Source of the DNA: the human T2T-CHM13v2.0 reference genome, Homo sapiens
Length of the DNA stretch: 64,000 nt
Direction: 5' to 3' (one strand)
NCBI RefSeq assembly: GCF_009914755.1
Contig: NC_060936.1
In this document: positions 1,341-56,987 of the stretch, in pieces
How the letters are laid out: each line of letters opens with the position of its first letter
Numbering within the stretch: position 1 is the stretch's first letter
Program-made: the position numbers and the translations under genes
Notes under the pieces: model-generated
Database searches by the model: none
Seen by the model: only the letters and a program-made list of their open reading frames with translations
What the model was told of the DNA's origin: nothing

Positions 1341-3699
1341 GGAACCCAGTTCTCCAGTTCTTCACCTCCCACTTCTCAAGGTTGTATTCTACACATCCAT
1401 AATTCAGGCACTAAGGGGGACTTGATCATGAGGACAAAGAAGGAAAGGTAGCAAACAATTCAGCCAAAGAAGTCCATAAATCAACCCAAGGTTTGCTGAG
1501 CAGGAAGGAAAACAGGAAAGATAGAACCCAGCAGCTGACAGGAACAGTCACTGTGGAGAGCCCAGTCCAGAAAGAAACAGCTATGGGCCCAGCCCAAGCC
1601 CCTTCCCATATTCATGCTTCCTGCTCTTTCTCTATAAACCAAGCCAATGTTTAACTCTGGGCCCTGTGGTCAGCTGCTCCCACCTCCTTCCTCTGCCTCG
1701 TTGAGCTCCTTGGCAGCCTGCCAAGAGGGACAAAGTCCACACCTGCAAGGAGGGGCTACAGGCCCTAGAAGTGTGAGAGGGGTCGGGGTGGGAGGGAGCC
1801 AAGGGGGCCAGGTACGGACTGAGGAGTGCTGAAGGGCATTCTGCCTCTTCCCCTCCGCAGGTACCACCATCAAAAGATGAAGTTAGTCCTGGGGATGGGG
1901 GGTGGAGTTCACAGTAACCTGCACCCCCATATCATCCATACTAGTCTCCTCAAAAATTCTAAAATGTGCTGGCATTTTCTCCGTGAGATAGGAGAGACCA
2001 TATCCCCGTCCCAGAAAGCAATCACTCTCTTGGCCCCCCTTCTCAAAAGGAGCACGCTCTGTGGTGTCACTTGTAACGTTCCAGCCAATTTCTTACGGCA
2101 TAAACTGACGATCTTCCACTTGAGCAACAGAAGAGCGAGGAGCTTCCATGAGGAGTTATGTGCTGTCCTCGGCATGAGCCTGACCAACAGTGGGCCCTGA
2201 GTCATTAACTACACTTGGTAACACACTGTCACTCACTGCTAAATTAACCATTACTTTTATATGAACACACGAACAGTGCTTCTTATTTCTCTTTATTCTC
2301 TGCTATCTATAAACAGCACAGGGCTAATGGTTTTCCTTGCTGCCAAGGGAATCCTCTTTGTGTGGGCATCCCAGTGCACCTTCTTTACAGGCTGGAGCTG
2401 AGGGATCTTTCCCCTCCAGGCCCTTCTGAGAGGTCCTGCTGTGTGCCTCCTGTCGTGGCCTCACATGGGGACTCCAGTCCCAAGTTAATTCTGGGTGTTG
2501 AGCAACTTGGTCTGCCAGCAGCCAGGGTCCAGGCAGTTGGAGAGGTCTCAGCTGAAGGCCCGTGTTCTGAAGCACCCAGGACCTAGGTATGGGAAGACTG
2601 AGGCTCTGAAGAGGAGTTGGAGGGGACAGGGAGGAAGTCCTCGCAAAAGATGGTCTCCAGCTGGTGTCCTGAGACTAGTGGAAAACTTAAAAGGTTCTTG
2701 GCACGGGTAACTTCTGCCCCGAGTGAAATTTCAGCAACCTGGACTTAGAAATTAAGTGAAAATGTTGGCAGACGGTTTTTTCATCTGGGCTGAGATAGGC
2801 AGGAAGGTGATTTAAATTCCCCGCTGGCTATGGACAGTCCTATGACCAGAACCCTCTCCCGCTACCTTCTTCCCACATCACGCCTCCTGCGTTATCCAGC
2901 ATCTCCTCGTCCCATGACTGGAACTTTAACTGGGCAGGCCCTAGTAGAAAATCGTATTTGCTTTCCCTCCTGGCAGCTGAGGGTGGAGGGCTGGAGGAAT
3001 AGTTCAAATGTCAAGCTTCTTCAGCCGCCTCGCCAGCTCAGGGCCCCACCCCCGAGGAGTCTGGCCACTGGCACACTGTCACTGCTACGCAGGACTCACA
3101 TGGCCCCCTTCCGCCCAGAAGGGAAATACACAAGGAAGGGGTGGATTTTACCTACTCCCACATTTTGCCCCAATAACCCACATTTACTATTTCCAATTCC
3201 TTTCTCCCATCTCCCCCATTATCTTAAATCCATTTCAATCAGTCATTGTCCCCAGCCCTCCACTGTAACCGCTCTTATCATCAATGACTTCCCAGCTGCT
3301 AAAACCAACAATCAATTTCCTTTCCTCATCTTCTTAACCTATCTGCAGCCTTTGCTGCAGTTAATTTCTCCCTCCTCCCTGATAGAATTTCTTCACTCGA
3401 CTTTCCAAAACACTTCATTCTCTTGGTTTTCATCCTGCTTTACCAGTTTCTCATTTTCTGTCTCCTCTGCTGGTTTCCCATCTTCTCCCAGACCCACTAA
3501 AGGTCCTTACTTTCTTTTCTTATACCATCAAAATGCTAATGATCCCCAAATACACACCTCCAGCCAGATCTCTCTCACAAACCCCAAACTCACATTCTAT
3601 TGCCCAGTTGCCATTTCCACATGGACATCTGATAGATACCTCAACTCAACTTTCCCAAAATTCACCTCCTTACTTTCCCTTCAAAACCTGCTCCTCTGG

Positions 3700-3850
3700 G
3701 GCTAGGCACAGTGGCTTATGCCTGTAATCCCAGCACTTTGGGAGGCCGAGGTAGGCAGATCACTTGAGACCAGGAGTTTGAGACCAGCCTGGCCAACATG
3801 GCGAAACCCCCTCTCTATTAAAAACAACAACAACAACAAAACAAAACACA
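3700..3850 (+). mobile_element. Alu left monomer with (aac)n tail
   Basis: Alu left arm; TSD-like caaaacc(t)tgctcc on both sides. Confidence 0.9.
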
Positions 3851-4248
3851 AAACCTTGCTCCCTTCATGGCCTTCCACATCTCAGTGAATGGCAGCTCCT
3901 TCCTTCCAGTCACTCAGGTGAAAACTCTCGGATTGCTTAGATGGGTGCTAGCAGTGGAGGGGATGAGAAGTGGTCGGGTCCTGCACATCTCATCGCGGGG
4001 GCTCTAGTCCCAGGCATTCGGGTGCTGAGCTACTCGCTCTGCCAGCAACCAGGGTCCAGGGAGCTGGAGAGGTCCTGAAGCTCCCAGGACCTGGGTGTTT
4101 GGGTAGAGTCAAGAGCTATGAAAGGTGGAGGAAATTAAGGATGACTCCAAGATTTTTGCCTTATAACCAGTCAGCTTCTGCCTTCACTCCCCTATACTCA
4201 GTTCTCAACATACCAGCTAGAGAGATTATTTTAAAATGTAAGATGACT

Positions 4249-4530
4249 GTCCGGGCGCAGTGGCTCACGCCTGTAATCCCAGCACTTTGGGAGGCCAAGG
4301 TGGGCAGATCACCTGAAGTCAGGAGTTCGAGACCAGCCTGGCCAACATGGCAAAACCTCGTCTCAACTAAAAATACAGAAATTGGCCGCGCGTGTTGGCG
4401 CGCGCCTATAGTCCCAGCTACTGGGGAGGCTGAGGCGGGAGAATCACTTGAACCCAGTAGGTAGAGGTTGCAGTGAGCTGAGATTACGCCACTGCACTCC
4501 AGCCTGGGTGACAGAGCGAGACTCCATCTT
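4249..4530 (+). mobile_element. Alu (AluS-like), A tail degenerate
   Basis: Full dimer; diverged TSD aatgt(a/g)agat(g/t)actg. Confidence 0.93.
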
Positions 4531-7500
4531 GGAGGGGGCGGAAATAATGTGAGATTACTGCTGCCCAAAACCCTGCCCTGCATCTGAATGTCACTAGAGC
4601 AAAAGCTGAAGTCTGAGAGTGGCCAACCTGACATACCTGATCTGCCCCTCTCCCTGTCCCCAGCCCATTTACTTCCCTGACCTTATCTATTCACTTGCCC
4701 AGCTCCAGGCTTGAGTCCTCCTCAAACAAGCCAGCCAGACTCTTGCTTCGTTTCAACCTTTGTTTCCTCTGCCTAGAGGAAAGCACTTTCACCCAACCCC
4801 ATAATATCCACATGGCCAGTTCTCTCACTCCTGGCAAGGCTTTGCTCACATGCTCTCAATGACCACCCTTTTAAAAATTGCCACCACCCACACCCACACT
4901 CCTGATCCCCTTTACCCAGCTCTCCTTGTTCTTTTTCTATAGCACTCATTAATTTTGGAATGCTACCTAATTTACTCATTTATCCCATTTATTGTGTAGT
5001 GTCTGTCTCCCTCCTCTAGAATGTATGCCCTATGAGGACAGGGAATTGGTCCGTTTTGATTATAGATGTATCCCAACCACCTAGAACAGTTCCTGGCTTT
5101 TGCTACGTGCTCAGTAAGTATTTGCTGGTGAATGACACAGGCTCAGGGCTTGGCTGAGTATGCGCCGAGGCAATGGAAAGAGACTGGAAATTATAAAGCC
5201 AGTAGGATGAAGCAGGTGCCTGGGGGTGGATCAGCTGCAGGTCCTGGACAGCAGGGAGATTATTTACCCAGGAGATGGTGGAGGCGGGCATCCCTCTCAC
5301 TCACCTCCCTAAAAGCGTCCCTGTTGCTTCCGATTTCAGATGGGCTTCTTTGAATCACTTTCTCAGCTTCCCTGCCTTTTGACTACAGTTTTCAGCTGTT
5401 TGCCTTGTGTTCTATCATAGCCTTGCCTCAGCTCTGGAACTCATTTCAAATTAGATCTACCACATGTTGACGCTGGAAGAAACCAAAGAAGATGTCACTT
5501 ACATTTTTAGTTTGGAACTAAAATTGTGCTCTGAGGACTTCTTCATCCCTGAGCTTCTCACTAAACAAATACTACTACGAATCCAATTCCTTGATTGCCC
5601 TCCCCTCCCCGCCAAGCACAAGAGTGGCTACTTGGAGCTGTGAATTTAAAGAAAGGGCCCAGGAGCAGGCCAGTCGGGTACGTTACTAAAGGATGGCACA
5701 GCCTGGAGTATCCCAGCGTCCTTGCTCAGAACACTCTTCCCATGCCCAGGAGCCAAGGCCCCAGTCTGAGAATGGTGAGTTCAAATAAAAGCATTAAACC
5801 AGGAGGAAAGGGGTCCAACCAATCTACAGGGTCTCCATTCTCCCCAGCCTCCTTCCCACATCAGCAGCAAAGGGTCCTTTCAGGAAGAGGCAGCAGTCTC
5901 TTCTTTGGCAAAGAGACAGGAGAATGACAAGATGAAGTTTAAGGGCCCATTCTCTGTAGGAGTTTGCTTTGCGTGGGAGGTGAGAGGAGTTAACTGATGA
6001 CAGAAAGTTTAAACTGCTGAGAACACCAAAAAAAAAAAACAGAAAAATAGGCAGGTCCAGGTTCCTCTACTGACCACACACATCCTTGATCAGCCCGCTT
6101 ACCTTGGCAAAGGAGCCATTTCACTAACCCAGCCAGTGGTCCTGGGTGACTCGTGCCCTCCAGAGCAAACCTGGGCCCCTGCCTGCAGCTCCCCAGTCCC
6201 TCAGAACATTCCCCTCCAGCTGCTGTCATCCATCAGCGAATGGGGGCGAGGAGTGCTCAGGCCCTGTGCTTGATAAGGGAAGAAGTTACGGGTAGGTAGT
6301 GTAAGGGTTAAACAAAGAGAACTTGACTGGATGGCAGGACTCCCAAACATGTCAGGACTCTCCACCAGAATCAGAGTGCTGGAAGGCAGGCTCTACCCAG
6401 GGAGAAGGAGACCACAGCCGCCGCCCTGCTGCCTCCACCTCCCCACACAGGACCCACGTGAATGACCAAGGGCTGTGGGTACTCTGCGTTCCCACACAAG
6501 ACACAGTCAACACGTTCCAGACCCACACAGACTCACCACGCAGCCCTGGGACCAAACATTGCCAGACAAAGGACCGGGGAGAGTCCCTCATCCCCCACGT
6601 TCCAGTCACTGCTCCCCTCCACTTTCCCCTGTCAGCCCAGTGCTTTGCATTAGACCTGGAAGGCAATCTCTCCCACCTCTTCGTGCCATTCCTGCTAATT
6701 CCCAGGCCAACCTTTACCCAATTCCAGAGAGGCTTGGGGAAAGCTGCTCACCTCCTAATCTCTCTGCCATGTGAGGAGCTAAGCTGGTTACCAGGTTCCA
6801 GACCCAGAGTCCCAATGCCAGATTAGTCCCCCAGCCTCCAGCTTTCACCCTGGGCCAGCTCCGTCTCTCCTGATTCTCCAAAGGGAGGGTACTCAGGCCT
6901 AAATTCCTAAACAAGCACGTGGAGCGTTCGGCACTAGGTAAAAAGTGGGTAGACCTTCCCTCTTCCCTCACAGTGCAAACTGAGCAAAGTCCTATGATTT
7001 CAGGCCACTGGCCAGAAAGAAATTCCTAGGAGGAAGGGACACGACAGCCCATTTTCATCCCTCTGGAAACATTCAAGTTAACCTCCAACCCAGGGACAAT
7101 CCCCAGTTGCCACAGACCTGGGAACCAGACTCCATGGGCCCAGGGCATCTCTCGTGTTCTCCCCCAGTTCCCACACCTCCCCTCTGTATTGAATGCTTTC
7201 TCTCTCTAAAATCATTGTGAGACTCAAGCTGGATGCGTTCGGCAGCTCTTACTCACCTGCAAAAGGATAGGTGTTGCTTTAAAGGACCTCAAATCCTGTA
7301 GCCCATGAACTTATCACTCCTCTCATCATTTTCCCTGGTGACCTACCTCTGTATTCCACATTCCTCCAGTCCCGGCTGCAGTCTCACTACAAAATCAGAC
7401 CTGGGAGCCCCAATCCTACAAGCTTTACCCATAAGCAAGGAGATATTCCTAACCCACTGGTCACCCAGAACCCTCCAGTAGTTGGGAAATCCCTCTAGCT

Positions 7501-7796
7501 AGGGCTTCCCACAGAGATACAAAATTCCCTGACTGTGGGTTAGTGGTTGCAAAATTTCTGTCACTGCTGTGGGGATAGCAGAGTTACCCCAGGGGGCTGA
7601 AAGAGAGGGGAATGAGAAGCCAATGATGACACAGTAAAGAGCTGGAGGTCATGCTCCCCCTACAACATGCACACATTTGTGCTGCGAAATTTTTAAAAAG
7701 AGAGCCTATACTAGAAGGGGCTGGGTAATGGATGGCTTAGGGAGCCTCACCGTGCCAGCAAAGTAGGAAAAAGACACAAGACCAAGGCTGGGGAAC

Positions 7797-8276
7797 CTTA
7801 AGACCACAGAACAGTTTGGTTATCAACGTCATCATCAGCAGAGCTACTATTTATTACTTAAGACCACAGAACAGTTTGGTTATCAACGTCATCATCAGCA
7901 GAGCTACTATTTATTACTTAAGACCACAGAACAGTTTGGTTATCAACGTCATCATCAGCAGAGCTACTATTTATTACTTAAGACCACAGAACAGTTTGGT
8001 TATCAACATCATCATCAGCAGAGCTACTATTTATTACTTAAGACCACAGAACAGTTTGGTTATCAACGTCATCATCAGCAGAGCTACTACTTATTACTTA
8101 AGACCACAGAACAGTTTGGTTATCAACGTCATCATCAACAGAGCTACTACTTATTACTTAAGACCACAGAACAGTTTGGTTATCAACGTCATCATCAGCA
8201 GAGCTACTATTTATTACTTAAGACCACAGAACAGTTTGGTTATCAACGTCATCATCAGCAGAGCTACTATTTATTA
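7797..8276. repeat. Minisatellite/VNTR, 8 x 60 bp, in SLC6A13 intron 2
   Basis: Unit cttaagaccacagaacagtttggttatcaacgtcatcatcagcagagctactatttatta; variants only at 8008, 8090, 8138 and 8150. Confidence 0.99.
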
Positions 8277-8460
8277 AGTGCTTTACACACATTGTCTCTA
8301 ATCCTTACAATGACCTTGAAAGGCAGGCATTATTATCTCAATTTGCAGGAGCGGCAATTGATGCTCTGAGAGCTTAAGTAACTTGTCCAAGATCACACAG
8401 AGTGTTAAGTAGCAGAGCCAGAATCCAAACTCTCATCCACCTGGTTCCAGCTTGTGCTCA
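8277..8460 (-). mobile_element. MIR abutting the 60-bp VNTR
   Basis: agtgctttacacacattgtc...aagtaacttgtccaagatcacacag MIR core, reverse orientation. Confidence 0.8.
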
Positions 8461-8589
8461 TATTTCTACGATGCCACGTTATAATAGAAAGAGCCCTGGG
8501 ATAGTCACGTAACCTTTCTAGGTCTTAGTCTCTTACAGAGTGTCCTTAATGACCTCTAAGCGTCCTCCTACCTCCAGAATTCTATACAT

Positions 8590-8883
8590 CTATGGGACTC
8601 CCCAGAGGGGCCGTAAGTGCAGGAGATGGAAGTATCCTCCTTCCAGGAGTGGGTGGGGTGGCACAAGGGCTCTCATCTCACCTCCCCCATTTTTGTAGCA
8701 GAGATAGGGAAACCTCCAGACGTTGCCTAAGCCAATGATCTCCCCAGCCACTGACAGCACAAACTCCATCTTGTTGTTCCAGTGCCCCCGCTCCAGGGTG
8801 CCATCTTCCTCCTTCTTTTCCATGACTGGATACACTGGTTTTGTCTCTCCATTACTGGTTGTGCCTGAGACCCTGCTATCCAT
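8590..8883 (-). CDS. SLC6A13: Possible truncated SLC6A13 isoform from read-through of the exon 2 donor: 97 aa ending [30 protein letters not shown]
   Basis: Frame stays open into intron 2 until TAG at 8590; poly(A) signals begin 315 nt later. Confidence 0.55.
8682..8883 (-). CDS. SLC6A13: SLC6A13 (GABA transporter GAT2) first coding exon (exon 2; exon begins at 8888), [16 protein letters not shown]...[17 protein letters not shown]
   Basis: SLC6 TM1 signature [18 protein letters not shown]; acceptor ttttccag|GTGGGATG; donor GAG|gtgaga; 202 coding nt. Confidence 0.97.
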
Positions 8884-9309
8884 CCCACCTGGAAAACAAG
8901 TGGGATGCTCTGTTACTGTTGGGAACCCCAGAAGGAAACCCCTCCTCCTGCTTTTACCAACAAATCCATAAGGGAATGAATGCACTGGAAGAGGTGAATT
9001 TCTATTCCCTTCCCTGTAGACCATGTCCTCCTTAGCAGTTCTCATTGGTAGAAGCTGGGTGACAGCTACTGAAAACATATATTCCTTTCCTGTTTCAGGA
9101 AGAAAGTGTTGGTACTGACAGACAGCCTTTGCTTCCACTATAAGGCCCTCTTGGGTTGAGGATTGCAGACATGGAGGAGTTCATGGGCCGCTGTGCTGTC
9201 TAAATTCTCCCTGCCACCCTACAGTCAGCCTCGTCGGGATTAGCATGTGCTTCAGTCTGTTTACTCTGTATGCTGGGACACGTTGAAAGGATGGGATTTT
9301 ACATGTCCT

Positions 9310-9750: not shown

Positions 9751-10049
9751 TTTAAAAAAAAATCCTGTCAAAGGATTGGGAGAGGTTGAGTGGGACCAGG
9801 AATTGTGAGTAAGATGAGGTGGTCTAAGTACTCCTTCTATGTCTCTCTGAAATCAGCGTAAGGCAGAGATTTACTATGCGCTCTTTTTCTTTTTTGGTGA
9901 TGACAAATTAGGAGTCTGTGACAGTAGAGAAGATGATATAAATAAAAAGCCACAGTTTTAACCATTCACTGTCAGAAATGGCCCATTCCAGACCACTGTT
10001 GGGATTGAGGATGACTGGACGTGGCCCACATTTAGTTAGCAACTACTAT

Positions 10050-10230
10050 AGACTAGGCACTTCACATACATTCTTTTCATTTAATTCTCACAACAACCCT
10101 GAGATGTAAGCATTATTACCTCCACTTTATAAATAAGGAAGTTGCAGCTCAGAGAGGTTAAATAATGTGACTGCTGCTGCCATATAGCTACTAACTTGCA
10201 CAGCCAGGACTTAAACCCACTCTGCCCCTG
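10050..10230 (-). mobile_element. MIR
   Basis: ttaattctcacaacaaccctgag...gctcagagaggttaa. Confidence 0.75.
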
Positions 10231-26085: not shown

Positions 26086-28987
26086 CAAGTGGAAATGTTT
26101 AACAGACAGTTGATTAAACAGCTCAGAAACAACCCGTGGGCAAGTGATACTTTTATTCAAATGAATAAAAGTAATTGGGAGTGGACTGGGGCACCCATGT
26201 TATATAGAGAAGAGCCCCCAATTACACCATTTCAAGGAGGCTGATTAAAGAGCAGCTAAAAAGAAGAAAAATTAGGAAACGGTAGTGGCCAAGAATCCAA
26301 TGGAGGGGTTTTTTAAAAGAAGTGGACAACAATGTCATACTGAAGAGAGGTCAAATACAAATGACTTCTAGCAATATGGAGTTCACTGACTTCAATAGGG
26401 AAACTTTCAGTGAAATGAGGGTAGAATCCAGATTACAACTGGCTGAGGAGTGATTGAAACCTAAATACAGAGAAGAGGTAAGGCTTGGCTACAAAGAAGA
26501 AAAAGAGAACAGGAAACAGAGACAGGTTTAAGGGAAAATATGTAGTTGAGCACTCCTATTTAATACAGAGCTTGAAATTATATGCTAAATGAGAGATACT
26601 GAAGATAAAGGGCTGATTGATAGAACAAGGTCTCTAAGGAGTTACAATGGGATAGGATTCACTGATGTGCTCATTCACCTATACTCTCATAGTGTTGACC
26701 AGAGGACAGACACCTCTTCTGGGACAGATGAGGATGATGATATAGATAACTAAGGAAGAAGCTTAGAAGCTCTCCTATTAGGTTCAATTTACCCGTTAGG
26801 AGGGTAGGCTTCTGCTGAGGCAGCAGAGGTGACAGGCTGAGTATTTGACAAGAGGTGAAAATCTGAAATAGTCTTTAAGAACGGAAGAGGTTGGACCGCC
26901 AGGGCTGCTAAACTGCTTCAAGAGCCTGCCTACTTGAGTCAATCTGTGGTGCTACCAACCAATGGTATATACTCAGTAGCATGCAGCAGCCCATGAAATC
27001 AAAGAAGTCAGATGGCCAAACTGATCCACGGATAAGGTTCTGCAGAGCCAGAGTGACAGGCCAGAGTCTATGCTAAATGGGGAAGCGGTAAAGCCAGAGT
27101 AAACTGACAGAGGGGGGGGGGAAAAGGTTGGTTAAGGAATTGGAGGCTTCTTGAGGTCAAAGAGTAAGTATACTGAGAGGAAGAGATTAAAGGAAAAGAC
27201 ATTAAAATCATAGAATAAATTAGGCTGTACATTTCAGAAAATAAATTTCTGATGAGTCCGAAGTGTGGACTTAAAATTGGTTTGCTAAATGGAGTAAAAA
27301 ATGACTAGTGGAGATGGAGGTCCAGAAATTGTTAAGGTCATCCATGACTAATGAAATTGCCCACAATGATGGCAGCACCAGGGAAAGAGATGCCCATCAT
27401 CGAAGTCCCCTCCATAAATGACGAGTAGTAACCAGAGATGAGTGAGGAGGATAGATGGTGCAGCTCAACAGCAGAAGCCTCAAAATAGAAGAACAATGGT
27501 GTAGCAATGGCAATCAAGAATACAGGGGCAACAGACCCTGTAATCCATCCATTTACTAGCAGTAAAGTGAGAAAATGAACACTCTCCACTTCAAATAGTC
27601 CTAAGGTAAGTATGGCTGAGGGAGAGTCAATTTCCAGTTAATGAAAAACCAGAAAAGCATATTTACAAAGGAATAGGGAATGAAAATCTCCATAATGCGA
27701 AGAACTGGCAAGGACAGCAGCAAAGGTAAAATGAATTGAGGAAAGTAGGTAACAATTTGAGGCCTGGTGACTGGATGGGCTTCTGTTTCAGATGGCAGCA
27801 ATGCATTATAGGGATGAGAAGCAAAGTGAATCAAACCAGTCTCTCAATGTTTCAACTGAACTCTGAAACGAGATGTTTCTATGACAAAACCAGTCCTGGG
27901 AAGTGACCAAGACGAGATGAGTTTGAATTGTTATTCAAGGTTCCAAAGAGAACATCAGTGATTTGCTGTTTTGCGTTGTCAATGAAGTTTAGCCCCAATT
28001 AGAGAGGATGGTAGGGCTAGGTCAGAAAGACTAAAGCTGCCAGTGCCCAGGTGGCCTACTGGTCTCAACAGAGCAGCATAATTTGCAGAGGGAAGGGGCC
28101 CATAGATGACTGAACGTCTAGGCTAGGTTTGTCAAAATGTGTCTAACACTCTCACCTTACCTCCATGGAGTTCAGCATTGAATGGAATAGAGATGCCGAC
28201 TTGCTAGCCCCAGGGCATAAGTGAAAGTGCTTGAAAATGCTGCAAAATTCAGACCCCAGCAGAGGGAAGTCTATAGGCGAGTTCCAATACATGTTAGTGA
28301 CCAATACTTAGATTTTTCCAAGAGATAGTCAGTACAGACACTGTATGTTCTGTCCTCAGGAGTGCCGAATCAATTTTTCGCTCATTAAATGGGGATTTGG
28401 ACTATACAGCCTCTATTGTCGTCTTTAAATTCTGTAACCTTTTTAGGAAGAAACATCCTTAGAAATCATCTATGTCTTACCCTGTCAAGGGGAGGGTTGT
28501 AACTTTTTTCTTTGTCACTAACTTGCATGTGGTAGGAAGCCAAGGTCCACAACAGATAAGCAACTAACCTAAGGGGCCAAACATAGAAGCTAAAACCCCA
28601 ATTCTCTTATTCCTAAATCCAGTGTTCTTTACGGGACGTAATTCTAAGATTCTCATCGGGGCTTCTGCAAACCTTTTTTGAAACTAAAGGACATTCTGAT
28701 TTCATCCTACGTCCCTGACAACTTCAAAAGGGCTCCTCAATACAAGGTGGGCCACGGAGCCATTTCTAAAGCTTCTTCCTGTGGTGCCTTTTCCCCCTCC
28801 CCACTGACAAGATACACAACCTAGCTCCAGAGATCAGGCTAGGGAAAAGCTTTGCCTAATAAAGAAATTTCATGGAACTTTAAGGAAATATTAAATCAAG
28901 TCTTTCTTCCTACCAAAGTAGAAATACACTTTACAGAACATACAAGTGAGAAGGGGTGAAGAGAGTGAAATTCCAAAATCACTCTAG

Positions 28988-28993
28988 TTTATT
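28988..28993 (-). terminator. KDM5A: Probable distal KDM5A poly(A) signal AATAAA (second AATAAA at 29115-29120)
   Basis: tttatt on plus; two UGUA motifs upstream (29042, 29051); U/GU-rich tract downstream (28921-28970). Confidence 0.6.
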
Positions 28994-30754
28994 CACATAA
29001 TATAGTATTTGATTCCATTCTTTTGTACTGTTCCCTACTTTTACAATGTGTACAATGTTTCACCATGTTCCAATTAATGGTTGAGCTTTAAATGAAAATA
29101 TTCTGGATCTTCCATTTATTGGTATCAACCACAATAGCAAGACCCCCAAGAAATACTTGATCTAAACTGGGAGGGTCCAACACAATTTTTTTTTTTAATG
29201 GACTTGCCACCTTAAGAAACTTCAAGTGTATCTTTTTGTTGGCAAGAAAATTATTTCCCAAGAGGTAATCAGATTCCCCTCCCTGCCCCCGCTCTTTCAA
29301 CCAACCCTCCTCCTAACATACACATACAGAGTTACACATTTCATGAAACTGAGGCCAAGTCCACTGCAAGCAGAGTCTTAACATTTTCAGAAATGATCCG
29401 TCCTTCATATCTGCATAAGCTGGGATCCTTGGCAATGGGGAAAAGGTGCCATTTGCTTCTCTGAAGTAACTTGGGGTCTGAATTGGTTGTGAGCTTTAAG
29501 AAGCCAAAGAGAAAGGGAAAGCATTTCCTTGTTTTCCCTATTAATGGTTTGTTGCAAAGGGATAAACTTCTCAAGAACCAAAAGTGAGGAAATGTGTTGG
29601 TCATCACTGGATTCTTGCTGGAAACAGAAGGCAGGTGAAATCTTCAGGAATCACTTCACACTCCAAAAACACTATTCTCAGCAATGATAATAGGCTAATC
29701 ACACCACTGATCAAATTATTTTGGCTCAGTTCTTTATTTTATAGTTAGCAAATGAAATTAGAAACTGCTTTGGCACAGGTCAAAGGTGGCTCCCATATAC
29801 TCACTAGTTTTCCTCAGGATTATCAATACTCATTATCAAAATGTACTTTTGCTTGGTTACCATTTAAAGTTGCCACCAATGTAAATGACAGGGGTTAGGG
29901 TGGGTATGGGTGTGGGGAACCTGAGCATACACACAATTTTTTAAATCTTTTAGATGTAATGCAATTAACCATATCTAATATTCTTTTAGAAAACACAAGA
30001 AACACAAAACATGCTCAAAGATCAAGAAATCGAGTTATACTTTTCATAAGGCACCACCAATTACCCTGATAAATTGTAAATAAATATGTAAGGGAATAAT
30101 CAATAGGGAGTCTTGAGGTTTTACAAGACATTCCTGTTTAGACCACTTGGAGTACTGCAAAAGAAAAAACAAACAAGATACAGCTTTCATAACCCATCAT
30201 ATCCTTGCCCAGTGCACATCATTTGTTGCATAGTGGTGACTGGATATGATCCAGGCCAAGACAAGACCAAAATTCAAAAAATACATTAACAGCCATTCTT
30301 CCTCATACTACAGTAGGAGATACCACTTGGGACATTCATATCCAAAGAAGTAATGGTATGACTTAAAAAAAAAGGAGGAATTTCAAAAGGAGTACTTAAG
30401 GACCTGCTATAAAAGCAACCTTCTACACACATATGGAGCTAATTCACATGTGAAGCTTTATTAAATCTGGTTATATGTGGGACTTCAACAGCTCAATTTT
30501 TCCACAATTTCCACTTTTCAAATCCCATGCCAAACTGTCACTTTTTCCCTTAAAAAGTGGATAAACCCATCTTTTGAAAGACAGGTCTTCTCAGTTTTTC
30601 TGTTCATCCTCCTACTGTAAGTACTGGCTGATATTCACACACATGTACTACAGAATTAAAATACTGACAAGCAAGTAGTTTCTTGGCGTGCACGAATTGC
30701 ATCCAGAACCCAAAAATTAAGAAATTCAAAAAGACATTTTGTGGGCACCTGCTA

Positions 30755-30986
30755 GCACAGAAGCGCAGAAGCAAAGCCCAGGCAGAACCATGCTAACCTT
30801 ACAGCTCAGCCTGCACAGAAGCGCAGAAGCAAAGCCCAGGCAGAACCATGCTAACCTTACAGCTCAGCCTGCACAGAAGCGCAGAAGCAAAGCCCAGGCA
30901 GAACCATGCTAACCTTACAGCTCAGCCTGCACAGAAGCACAGAAGCAAAGCCCAGGCAGAACCATGCTAACCTTACAGCTTAGCCT
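30755..30986. repeat. Minisatellite, 4 x 58 bp, within KDM5A 3'UTR
   Basis: Unit gcacagaagcgcagaagcaaagcccaggcagaaccatgctaaccttacagctcagcct starts at 30755, 30813, 30871 and 30929; last copy has 2 substitutions. Confidence 0.98.
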
Positions 30987-33900
30987 CTGTCCTTTAAAAA
31001 AAGAGAGAGACAGACAGACACATGGGGTCTCGCTGTTGACCAGGCGGGACTCAAACTCACAGGTTGAAGCAATCTTCCCACTTCAGCCTCCTGACCACAG
31101 GTGCACTCTACTGCACCTGGCTGCCATGTTTTTTATTATTAAAGTACATTATGGGTAATCACAGGTTTAATGTTTGCCGTTTCCATTATTCAAGGTATGA
31201 CATGCAATAATTTATAATTTTACTGAGGCACAAATTTGAATCATGCAGGCAAAGCTGGTGTGCAGCAGCTTAGTGAGGAAGTCATGCATCTACACATCAA
31301 CATGGCTTTGCTGCAGTACCTATCAGGAAGCAAAATAAACATCTGTGGAAGAAAAATCTCCTGTCTTCTCCCCCAGCTAGAAAGCTAACTACTGGTGCTG
31401 TATTTGTACTTTTAAACTTGGGGATCTGCATAGTTCTAATGACTTAGCTTTTAAGAATACCACAGGCCTACCATATTTCCATTTTTCTTTCTATAACCTT
31501 TGCCAGAGTTAAAATACTAATGATGAAGAATTGCAACTTCAGTTGCAGTTTAGAGGAGATAAGGGTAGAAAGACATTTTAAATCATGTCTTAATACAAAA
31601 TATTACAATACAGAAGGGAGCAAGTAAGTAATTTTCTCTAAGTGAAAATAATGCTTTGTATTAGAACACCAACATTTCTTTAAATAGATGAATCTTGTTT
31701 CATTAATTCCAAAACCGCAGATTTGTGTATTTTTTGTTTTGCCATTAATTTCTCCCTTCTGTTCTTCTCAGCCTTGGTCTAAACCTGTGGTCAAGTCATA
31801 CCAAATCCTCCATGACTGTCAAGTAAATACAGAAAATCCCACAGTATCAACGAAAAGACATATTTAAGTTTCAAAACGTCAGAAGGTGACAGGAAGCTAT
31901 TCATACTTTCTCAGCATCCTCATGACTCTCCACTGATAGTGGAATAGTTAATGGATGATTAGGAAGGAAAAATAAAAATTTTAAATGTATTCCAGGCATC
32001 TGTCACTTAAAATTACATTCAATTTTTAACCCACAAATATCTGAAGACTGTTACAAAGAAGATCAACAGGCAAAAAATATTGTGCTTTCTTGTATAACAT
32101 CAACCAGAGGAAATTCTTAATTGATAATCGTTAGCTTGGCAAAACGAAAACTTATGAAATCAGTTAATTAGTTACCTTGCAATATCCATTGAAATCTTCG
32201 ATCATACACAAACTTACTTCAGATGAGACCTCAAGACATATGCACAGCAACACTAACAAACCTCTGAACAAGTCAAAACACTCAAAATGTTATACAGTAT
32301 TAAGAATGAATAAAAAGTAGGTAGTATGAACTTCAGAGAAAACATTTACAGAAATTGGATTTTATAAGAAAACATCTTTTTTTTTGTAAGATTCCTTTTG
32401 AGTTAAATCTCATACCCACTCAAACTGTAACTGGACAGTACATTTCACTTCTAGTTACTAGAAGACAGTTCTTTAAAAGAGACTGGGGCAAAAAGGGAAG
32501 AGGAAACTATAAGCTGTTGCTAGGTCCACCCCAATCCCCCCTTTAAAAGGAAAACTGATGAATTTAAGTCAAACCACAGATTTTTTTAAACCAAAATAAA
32601 GACACCAGACAGTGATGACAAAACACTATTTTTAGTCATTTTTTTTTTTGTCCTTTAAAAAAAAATTAGTCCCCTTCTAATAAGAGTTTACATACAGCTT
32701 ACCTAATACCTTAAGAAGAACAGAGAACACAACAGGAGGGAAGAGGACACAGCACCATAGTTTCAAACATTCACACACAAAAGAAAAAAGAGCCAGCACA
32801 GACTAGAGTGAGACCAAGTTTCCCAACAGACAGGGACAAGTCCCAACACACAAAGGACATATAATTATCTATATGAACAAAAGCAAAATGGAAGATCTGG
32901 TCAGGCTGGGATGGAGGAGGGAGTGCTAACTCCTTGTACTACAAAGAAGGAATGGGATTTTTTTTTTTAAAGCAAAAAAGAAAAAGCAAGCCCCCAAATG
33001 GATTTTTGATGTTGAAACTCTGTCATATGCTGCTGGTAACAGTAAATATATATATTTATATATTCATATATGTATATTAAAAAAGGAAAAATAATCTATG
33101 TATAGAACAGTCAGTAGTCAGAGACATTTAGAAAAAAGTAAAAACAAGTCCTTTTTTTTTTTTAAAAATGGATTTACTAAAACAACTTCATCACCCAGAG
33201 GTACTACAACCCCACATCCTCTGATGAAGCCATGGTGTTATTCAACAGCATCTGCTGTGGGCCGTAGTTAGAAATCACCAGTGTTGGAAACAGCAGACAT
33301 TGGGGTCAGGGCTGCAAGGCAAAAAGCTGTTATTTGCTGGTCTTGCTCATGGCCATGCCTGAAGCCTGGTGTCTGGAATACTTGTGAATGAAGTTTTCCC
33401 CGAAAAGCATGCATCACTGTGGCTCAGTAAGATAGTACGACTGGTCATCATCGTCATCTTCTTCTCTTTTTTTTTTTGGCAGAAGCCTGGATCCATGTAC
33501 CTGCTCTTCCCTAAAATGTAGACCCAAGACAGCAAGACTTTTCAAAGCCAAAAAACGGCTCCTTGCCTTGTAGTAGGTTCTTCTCCTCAGAATCCAATCT
33601 AGTCAGATTTCTGATCTAGATGATATCCTCATCTTACAAAGATAAGGTGACCTGCCCCAGCTTGTGAGAGGTTCTCCTATTTGGGATGTTCTTCTAGCAC
33701 AAACAAGCACAAATCGCTGAGGTCAATAGACTGTGATACCATTCCTTGACGTCTAACAGAAATAACTTTGGCCCTGTTACTCCTAGTTGTATCTTTAGGG
33801 CATTAAGTACCAGGTAACAGTGGAAGGAAAGTGGTACTCCAATCCCTCTCCAACTATCCCAATGAAGGAGATCCAAGCAATTAGCACCTTCAGTTGGTGC

Positions 33901-34283
33901 TGCTCCTAAGTTGTAAGCCTCTAACTACTATCAGCTGGACAAAAGCCACATCCTATATGCCCTGTTAGCACACCAATGTATTAATACTAACCAGCCACCC
34001 TAGAGCTCAATTAAGCATCTGGCCTTAATGCAGTAAACCACACTCAAAGGAGACATGAAATATTGGCTGTTGTACCAAAGAAGACACCCTCTGCATAGAT
34101 ATGTTGATAGAGAATGTAACCCACAGAGTCCATGCAAAGAGGAAGCCAGCACTAAGGGGACTTTCTCTGAAGGCCATTCATCTTTGGAAGCAACATTCCA
34201 AGTGGATATAAACCACTCTACTTGATGACTAAGGTCTCAATGTGGTCCATGTCCCCCCATGTCCCAAACTAACCAAGCATCTG

Positions 34284-34532
<249 letters not shown>

Positions 34533-55289: not shown

Positions 55290-55594
<305 letters not shown>

Positions 55595-55723
55595 TCAGCA
55601 ACCTGTAATGTTTTGAGTTTTGAAAAAATGCTACGACTAAAAACTCAGAACAGATAAATGATTAGTTTTCTCTTTCACTTTCAGGCCTCAAACATCACTG
55701 TTCAATAGCTTTTTTTTTTTTTA

Positions 55724-55918
<195 letters not shown>

Positions 55919-56231
55919 CTAAACAACAAATAATTCCAAGATGAACAGCAAGACATGCTAAACAGACAGGGTAATTAATGTGTGCTTAAGATCACCAAAA
56001 TGTAATGAATAAGCAAAGTGGCTAACAGAGTTCTTCAACAGTTAGTAGAAATCAAATTATTTGATTATGATGCCAAAGTCCACCTGAATGATATTACCAA
56101 GAATATTTCACTAAGTACGTATCCAAAAAAAGTGCTATAGTGTATGTTGAAGGAGAATGCAATGGATAATTGCTGACAAGTTACTGTTATTTTCCTAATC
56201 AATTGGTAAGACAGACTCAATTTACTATTTA

Positions 56232-56987
<756 letters not shown>

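What the first reader, a model, noticed from the sequence alone, without database searches (positions are those of the whole stretch)
7797..8276. A minisatellite built of poly(A) cassettes right after SLC6A13 exon 2: possible copy-number rheostat for intronic polyadenylation
Seen: on the SLC6A13 sense strand each 60-nt unit reads UAAUAAAuaguagcucugcugaugaugacguugauaaccaaacUGUUCUGUGGUCUUaag, i.e. AAUAAA with a GU/U-rich element ~37 nt downstream. Six of eight units carry AAUAAA (plus-strand tttatt at 8270, 8210, 8030, 7970, 7910, 7850); the substitutions at 8090 and 8150 convert the other two to AAUAAG. I found no AAUAAA or AUUAAA between the exon 2 donor (8681) and the array. The reading frame runs past that donor to a stop at 8590, giving a 97-aa product with only the N-terminus and TM1. 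Established: AAUAAA plus a downstream GU-rich element is the CPSF/CstF architecture; intronic PAS use competes with splicing and U1 telescripting; near-identical tandem units are typically length-polymorphic. Inference: the number of intact-PAS units could tune the ratio of full-length GAT2 to truncated transcript.
Basis: partly seen in the sequence, partly recalled or inferred. Interest (0 to 1): 0.8.

Follow-up and report, generated by a model that had tools for sequence, protein, structure and literature searches.

The report
Poly(A)-signal minisatellite in SLC6A13 intron 2
A 60-base unit carrying a poly(A) signal inherited from an old SINE has been copied eight times just after SLC6A13 exon 2, and an annotated truncated transcript already ends at its last copy, but nothing yet shows that copy number tunes the gene.

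Summary
Window 7797-8276 holds exactly 8.0 copies of a 60-bp unit. On the SLC6A13 sense (-) strand, 6 of 8 units carry AATAAA and 2 of 8 carry AATAAG. No AATAAA or ATTAAA lies between the exon-2 donor and the array. Read-through gives a 97-aa ORF.

Three things are new here.
- The hexamer was probably inherited, not made by chance. The array starts inside the 3' tail of a MIR-like dispersed repeat, and the rest of each unit is unique flanking sequence with a TGTG-type downstream element.
- The hub's RefSeq table lists an alternative exon 7820-8888. It has no splice donor at 7820 and ends 30 nt after the last AATAAA. Intronic polyadenylation here is therefore already annotated.
- That transcript reads through five intact upstream cassettes and stops at the only unit followed by an extra unique GU/U-rich tract.

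The copy-number "rheostat" stays untested. I could not test length polymorphism, per-unit usage or any expression effect. SLC6A13 was absent from 5 of 6 supplement sets, and the two tandem repeats the sixth lists for it lie elsewhere.

Best reading: a young, amplified, SINE-derived intronic poly(A) site that makes a minor truncated isoform.

The parts
7797..8276 (-). Minisatellite of 8.0 x 60 bp. Each unit holds a PAS hexamer (unit positions 2-7), a cleavage region (around positions 35-42) and a GU-rich element TGTTCTGTGGTCTT (positions 44-57).
   Evidence: The unit is unique in the T2T-CHM13 assembly: 1 candidate locus, and all 4 matches lie inside the array.
7850..7855 (-). AATAAA of unit 8, the hexamer that precedes the annotated 3' end. 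The other AATAAA hexamers lie at 8270-8275, 8210-8215, 8030-8035, 7970-7975 and 7910-7915.
8090..8155 (-). Adjacent units 3 and 4 with AATAAG (8150-8155 and 8090-8095), a variant shared by two neighbouring units.
7820..8888 (-). Annotated alternative exon of another SLC6A13 RefSeq transcript. It is a composite terminal exon of 1069 nt: exon 2 plus read-through into intron 2, ending at position 37 of unit 8.
   Evidence: Hub annotation table supplied with the finding. There is no donor dinucleotide after 7820, and the hexamer starts at -35.
8682..8888 (-). SLC6A13 exon 2. The ATG is at 8883 and the donor GAG|GTGAGA has its first intron base at 8681.
   Evidence: Hub annotation.
8590..8883 (-). 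Read-through ORF of 97 aa plus stop. It covers the N-terminus and the first 38 positions of the SNF profile (TM1), followed by 30 intron-encoded residues.
8277..8433 (-). MIR-like dispersed repeat in the same orientation as the gene. Its 3' tail runs into unit 1 (hexamer and roughly the first 15 nt). UGUA motifs lie at -69 and -47 relative to the unit-1 position that corresponds to the annotated end.
   Evidence: 39 dispersed genomic matches at 71-95% identity, with 103 candidates of which 40 were scored; 80% identity to the majority of 17 copies.. The family name is recalled and fits the description in PMC2553571.
7768..7785 (-). Unique GU/U-rich tract TTGGTCTTGTGTCTTTTT just after the array. 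It is an extra downstream element available only to the last cassette.
7745..7753 (-). 5' splice-site-like ACG|GTGAGG (7 of 9 to consensus), 47 nt after the array.

Best explanation
This is an evolutionarily young minisatellite made by tandem amplification of a transposon-derived intronic poly(A) site. The 3' tail of a MIR-like SINE, lying in the sense orientation, supplied the AAUAAA and an upstream UGUA. The adjoining unique sequence supplied the cleavage region and a UGUG/U-rich downstream element. A 60-nt segment spanning both was then copied to 8 units.

When the exon-2 donor is not spliced, the transcript runs 406 nt into intron 2, crosses the array, and is cleaved and polyadenylated about 30 nt after the last AAUAAA. 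This gives the annotated composite-terminal-exon transcript (7820-8888). It encodes a 97-aa fragment (N-terminus plus TM1) that cannot be a transporter.

I infer that this is a minor by-product. Splicing and U1 bound at the good exon-2 donor should suppress most use, and the internal cassettes are weak and usually bypassed. Copy number would then mostly change the length of that isoform's 3'UTR and would have little effect on full-length GAT2 output.

Shown: the anatomy, uniqueness, origin of the upstream repeat, the ORF, and the fit between hexamer, annotated end and downstream element. Inferred: the isoform's low abundance, U1 suppression, the weakness of internal units, and neutrality.
For: - Array anatomy.
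- The unit occurs nowhere else in the assembly.
- The sequence directly upstream belongs to a dispersed family. One search gave 39 dispersed matches. All 17 of 17 fetched copies matched at 69.6-81.3% identity. The window copy is 80% identical to their majority.
- Family tails carry the hexamer at the homologous place: AATAAA in L017 and L025, AGTAAA in L019. 2 of 6 tails aligned pairwise run through the hexamer to unit position ~15.
- PMC2553571 (passages read) states that the MIRb 3' end carries ATTAAA, AATAAA and TGTA on its plus strand. It also states that MIR/L2 3' ends combine with flanking genome to make poly(A) sites.
- Units differ by a mean of 1.55%, against 20% divergence of the SINE part from its family. 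The amplification is therefore far younger than the insertion.
- The annotated exon 7820-8888 (hub table) ends without a donor, 35 nt after the start of the last hexamer, with TGTG at +7..+20. This lies within the -40..-1 and +1..+40 ranges quoted in PMC2553571.
- The downstream genome is not A-rich.
- No stable RNA structure hides the cassettes: z = +1.17.
- The donor matches the consensus at 7 of 9 positions.
Against: - I saw no 3'-end sequencing, long-read or expression data.
- The accession and evidence type of the RefSeq transcript ending at 7820 are unknown to me.
- Low abundance and weak internal cassettes are inferences from a single annotated end, and annotations tend to keep the longest end.
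- Units 1, 2, 6, 7 and 8 are identical, so short-read 3'-end data would multi-map and under-report internal ends.
- Homology of the hexamer itself to the SINE tail rests on a few copies, because most tails are truncated or diverged.
- AATAAA is reported to be counter-selected in introns, most strongly near 5' splice sites (PMC5499120, abstract and passages). Six copies 406-826 nt from a donor is therefore an unusual accumulation that a purely neutral view does not predict. Youth of the array could excuse it.
Confidence: 0.6

Rival explanations
1. Copy-number rheostat. Every intact cassette has an appreciable chance of cleavage, so the fraction of truncated transcripts rises as 1-(1-p)^n with the number n of AAUAAA units. 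Population variation in n, or in the AAUAAA/AAUAAG composition, would then tune full-length GAT2.
For: - Each of the 6 intact units is a complete cassette: hexamer, cleavage region and TGTG element.
- No competing AATAAA or ATTAAA lies upstream.
- The canonical gene-end signal is the weaker variant ATTAAA at -24.
- The shared AATAAG in adjacent units shows that units have been duplicated after mutating, so the array has turned over.
- The geometric model gives sizeable effects if p >= 5% per unit: 26% truncated at n=6 against 46% at n=12.
Against: - No polymorphism, usage or expression data could be obtained.
- The only annotated end is in the last unit, after five intact cassettes were bypassed (hub table; one search gives <=16.5% expected under equal p).
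- The last unit alone has an extra unique GU/U-rich tract.
- If p is ~0.5-2%, doubling n changes full-length output by only 3-10 percentage points.
- In the Lu et al. 2023 tables, SLC6A13 has one eVNTR row and one eMotif row, at hg38 chr12:295,231-295,377 and 239,029-239,383. Neither is at my estimated position of this array, about 259.0-259.5 kb.
- SLC6A13 is absent from the supplements held for four other VNTR-eQTL or IPA papers and from Lu 2021. One file each was unreadable, and kidney and liver sample sizes are small.
- The array lies within the distance at which U1 at the donor is expected to suppress poly(A) sites (recalled).
Confidence: 0.12
2. The annotated 3' end at 7820 is not a real poly(A) site. 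It would be a model end or cDNA artefact caused by the repeat, making the array a functionless intronic minisatellite whose hexamer is never used.
For: I could not see the evidence behind the RefSeq model. Alignment and mapping inside 98-100% identical units are error-prone. The hexamer-to-end distance (35 nt from the hexamer start) is at the long edge of the usual range. SLC6A13 does not appear in the IPA tables held for IPAFinder or InPACT.
Against: The end falls at the expected place relative to both a canonical AATAAA and a TGTG element. It lies at ...GATAA|CC with only 5 A in the next 10 nt, so oligo-dT internal priming is unlikely. An arbitrary truncation would hit such a position by luck only.
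Confidence: 0.1
3. The array acts at the DNA level as a variable intronic enhancer or silencer, as is claimed for other SLC6-family VNTRs. Each unit would offer the same set of transcription-factor sites.
For: Each sense unit contains TGATAA (GATA-like), TGACG (CRE half-site-like; lost in unit 5 through the CpG>TpG change at 8008) and TGTGGT (RUNX-like). The motif names are recalled, not tested. Precedent, also recalled: the SLC6A4 intron-2 and SLC6A3 intron-8 VNTRs.
Against: Any 60-mer contains a few such short matches. The hub's RefSeq functional-element list has no element here; its only enhancer in the window is at 55538-56737. No chromatin or binding data could be examined.
Confidence: 0.07

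Closest known systems
Composite-terminal-exon intronic polyadenylation (an internal exon extended into the intron to a poly(A) site; concept recalled from Tian et al. 2007)
   Same: The exon-2 acceptor is kept and the donor is skipped. The transcript ends at an intronic AAUAAA site, the ORF is truncated with an intron-encoded tail, and the stop lies in the last exon (hub annotation).
   Different: The signal is present 6-8 times in perfect 60-nt register instead of once.
Poly(A) sites built from the 3' ends of MIR/L2 elements plus flanking genome (Lee, Ji & Tian 2008, PMC2553571; passages read)
   Same: An upstream UGUA and the AAUAAA lie in the tail of a MIR-like element on its plus strand, and the TGTG downstream element lies in unique flank. 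This is exactly that paper's 'mode ii'.
   Different: The junction segment has been amplified into a minisatellite. That paper describes single sites.
Sense-oriented intronic L1 as a 'molecular rheostat' through multiple internal poly(A) signals (Han, Szak & Boeke 2004; Perepelitsa-Belancio & Deininger 2003; both recalled, not read here)
   Same: The idea is the same: many cryptic poly(A) signals in an intronic insert attenuate full-length transcription in proportion to the insert.
   Different: L1 signals are heterogeneous and come with an elongation defect. Here the units are identical, and the dose would be set by a length-variable repeat. Nothing of this is demonstrated for the locus.
Tandem poly(A) 'STOP' cassettes used in conditional alleles (recalled)
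   Same: Several poly(A) sites in series raise the total termination probability, the same logic as the geometric model.
   Different: Those are engineered and use strong viral sites. The natural cassettes here are of unknown, probably low, efficiency.
VNTRs of other SLC6 genes: SLC6A4 intron 2 STin2, and the SLC6A3 intron 8 and 3'UTR VNTRs (recalled)
   Same: Minisatellites inside SLC6 transporter genes that are proposed to modulate expression.
   Different: Those are proposed to act through transcription-factor or RNA-level effects and carry no poly(A) signal. There is no sequence relationship: the unit is unique to this locus.
U1 telescripting / counter-selection of intronic AATAAA near 5' splice sites (PMC5499120, abstract and passages; the protective distance of about 1 kb is recalled)
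   Same: The array sits 406-826 nt from the donor, in the zone where U1 is expected to suppress poly(A) sites.
   Different: AATAAA is generally depleted there, whereas this locus has accumulated six copies.

Membership tests
Minisatellite / VNTR | Head-to-tail tandem copies of a 10-100 bp unit | tested here: met
   Period 60, 8.0 copies, 98% matches, no indels.
Minisatellite / VNTR | Copy number varies between individuals | not testable with these tools
   Only one human assembly is held. A prefix search of the two Lu 2021 locus catalogues for start coordinates 258,970-259,039 (my hg38 estimate) found no chr12 row. This is inconclusive, because the estimate may be off and the files were cut when stored. 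The shared AATAAG in adjacent units shows past unit duplication.
Functional mammalian poly(A) site | AAUAAA or a close variant within about 40 nt upstream of a mapped RNA 3' end | tested here: met
   The annotated end at 7820 has AATAAA starting at -35 (hub table). I did not see the evidence behind the annotation.
Functional mammalian poly(A) site | U/GU-rich (TGTG-type) element within about 40 nt downstream | tested here: met
   TGTTCTGTGGTCTT lies at +7..+20 in every unit. An extra TTGGTCTTGTGTCTTTTT follows the last unit only.
Functional mammalian poly(A) site | Poly(A)-tailed reads or 3'-end tags at the site in expressing tissue | not testable with these tools
   No 3'-end database is on hand. 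SLC6A13 is absent from the held IPA supplements, and one file of each was unreadable.
Composite terminal exon (IPA isoform) | Shares the upstream 3' splice site of an internal exon and ends in the downstream intron without a donor | tested here: met
   The exon 7820-8888 starts at the exon-2 acceptor (AG at 8890-8889). The bases after 7820 are CC (hub table).
MIR/L2-tail-derived poly(A) site | The sequence carrying the hexamer belongs to the dispersed repeat family | tested here: met
   Window 8433-8277 has 39 dispersed matches. All 17 of 17 fetched copies align, and the window copy is 80% identical to their majority. The name MIR is recalled. The order ATTAAA...TGTA...AATAAA in family copies agrees with PMC2553571.
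MIR/L2-tail-derived poly(A) site | The hexamer itself is homologous to the family's own tail hexamer | tested here: inconclusive
   L017 and L019 align through the hexamer to unit position ~15, which is 2 of 6 tails aligned. L025 also shows AATAAA at the corresponding place. In the other fetched copies the tail shows no clear hexamer at that place or cannot be placed. The window copy lacks about 28 nt that are present in fuller copies.
Copy-number-dependent attenuator ('rheostat') | Several units used as cleavage sites | not testable with these tools
   Only one end is annotated, in the last unit.
Copy-number-dependent attenuator ('rheostat') | Repeat length or unit composition associates with the truncated:full-length ratio or with expression | tested here: inconclusive
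   This array is not the eVNTR or eMotif repeat listed for SLC6A13 in Lu 2023. SLC6A13 is absent from the Eslami Rasekh 2021, Bakhtiari 2021 and Lu 2021 supplements. Whether the locus was genotyped at all in those studies is unknown.

The most novel reading that the evidence does not exclude
The array is a common human length and composition polymorphism. The number of AAUAAA units versus AAUAAG units would act as an intronic-polyadenylation QTL for SLC6A13 in kidney and liver. It would be invisible to short-read 3'-end and eQTL pipelines because the units are identical. It would shift GAT2 dosage enough to contribute to the kidney-function and metabolite associations reported at this gene (those associations are recalled, not checked here).
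Probability: 0.07. Interest if true: 0.65.

Novelty: new variant of a known kind. Interest (0 to 1): 0.3.

Why it matters
If the internal cassettes are used, this would be a natural case where a length-variable repeat sets the dose of premature polyadenylation. Such cis-variation would be missed by short-read pipelines, because 5 of the 8 units are identical.

Even on the modest reading, the locus is a clean worked example of how a SINE tail plus flanking sequence becomes a poly(A) site and is then amplified. This happened in a zone near a 5' splice site where AATAAA is normally depleted (PMC5499120).

For SLC6A13 itself the practical consequence is probably small: a minor transcript encoding a non-functional 97-aa fragment.

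Tried and rejected
**Literature, full-text searches**
- 'SLC6A13' + 'VNTR': 5 papers, none about this locus. I saw the listing, plus one passage of PMC7488140 that concerns gene copy number.
- 'SLC6A13' + 'intronic polyadenylation': 0 papers.
- 'SLC6A13' + 'polyadenylation': 17 papers, 15 listed, none relevant by title or abstract start.
- 'SLC6A13' + 'tandem repeat': 15 papers, 14 listed. The two I opened mention the gene only as a missense-variant row and as a marker gene.
- 'VNTR' + 'intronic polyadenylation': 2 papers, listing only, neither on such an array.
- So I found nothing in print on this array. Subscription journals and unsearched supplements could still hold it.

- SLC6A13 is absent from Eslami Rasekh 2021, Bakhtiari 2021, Lu 2021, IPAFinder 2021 and InPACT 2024.
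- One file each could not be read. Several other files were cut when stored.
- Lu 2023 lists two other tandem repeats for SLC6A13, not this array.
- Searches by neighbouring catalogue index and by coordinate prefix found no row for this array.

**Other checks**
- Earlier findings of this scan were not open to the session.
- RNA structure hiding or presenting the signals: rejected. MFE was -28 kcal/mol against -32.1 +/- 3.5 for shuffles, z = +1.17.
- A coding repeat on the opposite strand: two stop-free frames cross the array on the + strand. This follows mechanically from a period of 60 = 3 x 20. No gene is annotated there, so I rejected it.
- My first guess that the SINE lies antisense to the gene was wrong. 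The alignments and PMC2553571 show it is in the sense orientation.
- Dating the amplification in primates, and comparing copy number with hg38, could not be done with the collections on hand.

Full report

Yes. Tandem Repeats Finder reports one array at 7797-8276: period 60, exactly 8.0 copies, 98% matches, no indels, score 932. Across the whole 64-kb window only one other array reaches score 150.

Read on the SLC6A13 sense (minus) strand, the unit is TAATAAATAGTAGCTCTGCTGATGATGACGTTGATAACCAAACTGTTCTGTGGTCTTAAG.
- 5 of 8 units are identical.
- The array holds four substitutions in all: 8150 A>G and 8138 C>T in unit 3, 8090 A>G in unit 4, and 8008 C>T (a CpG>TpG change) in unit 5.
- AATAAA starts at 8275, 8215, 8035, 7975, 7915 and 7855. 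AATAAG starts at 8155 and 8095.
- No AATAAA or ATTAAA lies in the 405 nt between the exon-2 donor and the array. Of the 19 hexamer variants I scanned, only AATAAT at 8334 occurs there.
- The next sense AATAAA after the array is at 4993.
- Reading through the donor from the ATG at 8883 gives 97 residues and a TAG at 8592-8590.
- Pfam sees only positions 1-38 of the 524-position SNF profile.

All coordinates and counts in the finding are therefore right. One refinement: the two AATAAG units are neighbours, so one mutation followed by a unit duplication is the simpler history.

**2. Is it more than chance?**

On sequence alone, only weakly. A hexamer followed by at least two TGT at +20..+55 occurs in 0.8% of 60-mers sampled from this intron and in 1.8% of shuffles of the unit. 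Among the many human intronic minisatellites, some will therefore look like this by chance. Two further facts lift the case above chance: where the hexamer came from, and an annotated RNA end.

**3. Origin**

The 60-nt unit is unique in the T2T-CHM13 assembly: one candidate locus, with all four matches inside the array.

The sequence directly upstream (window about 8433-8277) is a dispersed, old repeat.
- A search of the same assembly gave 47 matches. Eight are the locus itself and 39 are dispersed over many chromosomes at 71-95% identity. Only 40 of 103 candidates were scored, so these counts are lower bounds.
- A further diverged copy lies in the window at 10043-10216.
- I fetched 17 of the dispersed copies. 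All 17 match the window copy at 69.6-81.3% identity.
- The window copy is 80% identical to their majority (124 matches, 31 mismatches, 10 gap columns).

From recall, this family is the MIR SINE, lying in the same orientation as the gene. My first guess of antisense was wrong.

The family copies show, in order, an ATTAAA, a TGTA and then a tail hexamer. The tail hexamer is AATAAA in L017 and L025 and AGTAAA in L019. This agrees with Lee, Ji & Tian 2008, who state that the MIRb 3' end carries ATTAAA, AATAAA and TGTA on its plus strand. They also state that MIR/L2 3' ends combine with flanking sequence to create poly(A) sites (PMC2553571, passages read).

Pairwise alignment carries 2 of 6 tested tails (L017, L019) through the hexamer to about unit position 15. 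The other tails are truncated or too diverged. I therefore rate 'the hexamer is inherited from the SINE tail' as likely, not proven.

About the first third of each unit is SINE tail. The rest, with the cleavage region and TGTTCTGTGGTCTT, is unique flank.

Units differ by a mean of 0.93 differences per 60 nt, or 1.55% (26 differences summed over 28 pairs). The SINE part is 20% diverged from its family. The amplification is therefore much younger than the insertion, or the array is kept homogeneous by turnover.

**4. Is the signal used?**

The RefSeq table that the hub attached lists, among 'exons of other transcripts', one exon 7820-8888.
- It begins at the exon-2 acceptor (AG at 8890-8889).
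- It ends where the following sense bases are CC. It is therefore a transcript end, not a spliced exon.
- Position 7820 is position 37 of unit 8. That is 30 nt after the end of the last AATAAA, or 35 nt after its start.
- The TGTG-containing element lies 7-20 nt downstream. Both distances fall within the -40..-1 and +1..+40 ranges quoted in PMC2553571.
- The genome after the end reads CCAAACTGTT, which is not an oligo-dT priming site.

Intronic polyadenylation at this array, giving a 1069-nt composite terminal exon with a 770-nt 3'UTR made largely of the repeat, is thus already in the annotation. I could not see which accession this is or what supports it.

For comparison, the canonical SLC6A13 end uses ATTAAA at -24. 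The lncRNA end at 2277 uses AATAAA at -20.

**5. Does every unit count?**

Points in favour:
- The six intact units are complete cassettes.
- They are not buried in RNA structure (z = +1.17).
- No competing signal lies upstream.
- A simple serial model gives a useful dynamic range if per-unit efficiency p is at least 5%.

Points against:
- The one annotated end lies in the last unit, after five intact identical cassettes were read through. With equal p, at most 16.5% of truncated ends fall there.
- The last unit is the only one followed by an additional unique GU/U-rich tract, TTGGTCTTGTGTCTTTTT at 7785-7768. This suggests the flank, not the unit, makes the site efficient.
- All hexamers lie 406-826 nt from a good donor (GAG|GTGAGA, 7 of 9). 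From recall, that is within the distance over which U1 suppresses poly(A) sites.
- With p of 0.5-2%, doubling the array changes full-length output by only 3-10 percentage points.

A caveat cuts the other way. Annotation keeps the longest end, and short reads cannot be placed among identical units, so internal ends could exist unseen.

Lepennetier & Catania 2017 report that AATAAA is counter-selected in introns, most strongly near 5' splice sites (PMC5499120, abstract and passages). Six copies here are thus an unusual accumulation. That fits either a very young array or weak sites.

**6. What the literature and tables say**

Five full-text searches combining the gene name, or VNTR, with the relevant terms found nothing on this array. 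The passages I opened were unrelated.

SLC6A13 is absent from the held supplements of two VNTR-eQTL papers, of Lu 2021, and of two IPA-caller papers. One file in each could not be read.

Lu et al. 2023 list SLC6A13 twice, both in thyroid:
- an eVNTR at hg38 chr12:295,231-295,377;
- an eMotif VNTR at 239,029-239,383 (nominal p = 2e-13).

Neither is this array. By the offset of the gene ends, I place it near hg38 259.0-259.5 kb. Index and coordinate-prefix searches found no row for it. Whether the locus was genotyped at all in those studies is unknown, so this is absence of evidence only.

**7. Verdict**

The best-supported reading (confidence 0.6) is a SINE-tail-plus-flank poly(A) site, recently amplified into an 8-unit minisatellite. 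It terminates a minor, already annotated read-through isoform that encodes a non-functional 97-aa fragment. Copy number then mainly changes that isoform's 3'UTR length.

Rivals:
- a true copy-number rheostat (0.12);
- an artefactual annotated end (0.10);
- a DNA-level enhancer VNTR, based only on short GATA-, CRE- and RUNX-like words in each unit, whose names are recalled (0.07).

The kind of thing is known: TE-derived intronic poly(A) sites and composite terminal exons. The tandem amplification of a whole cassette is a variant I did not find described. Interest is moderate to low until long-read ends and population copy numbers are examined.

Noticed in passing
window 30755-30986: A second near-perfect minisatellite: period 58, 4.0 copies, 98% matches, score 450. 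It lies inside the KDM5A last exon (28885-34490, coding only from 34284), so it is in the KDM5A 3'UTR.
   Followed up: no
window 28885-28945 (- strand): The annotated KDM5A 3' end at 28885 has none of the 9 common hexamers I scanned in its last 50 nt. It does have three UGUA at -59, -50 and -43, which could mean a non-canonical, UGUA-dependent site or an imprecise end.
   Followed up: no
window 7741-8369 (+ strand): Two stop-free frames (178 and 200 codons, stop to stop) run through the array on the strand opposite SLC6A13. This follows mechanically from a period of 60 = 3 x 20, and no gene is annotated there.
   Followed up: partly
window 7745-7753 (- strand): A 5' splice-site-like ACG|GTGAGG (7 of 9 to consensus) lies 47 nt after the array. 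A U1 site just downstream of the last cassette could damp its use, or could serve as an unannotated donor.
   Followed up: no
window 10043-10216 (- strand): Another diverged copy of the same MIR-like repeat (63.8% identity over 174 nt), in the same orientation, in SLC6A13 intron 1.
   Followed up: no
window 2277-6131 (- strand): The lncRNA LOC102723544 lies inside SLC6A13 intron 2 on the same strand. It starts about 1.7 kb downstream of the array, and its end at 2277 has a textbook AATAAA at -20 (hub table). A same-strand start so soon after an intronic poly(A) site may deserve a look.
   Followed up: no
outside the window (hg38 chr12:239,029-239,383, mid-SLC6A13): Lu et al. 2023 list a different SLC6A13 VNTR whose 21-nt motif dosage associates with SLC6A13 expression in thyroid (nominal p = 2e-13, slope -0.31).
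   Followed up: no
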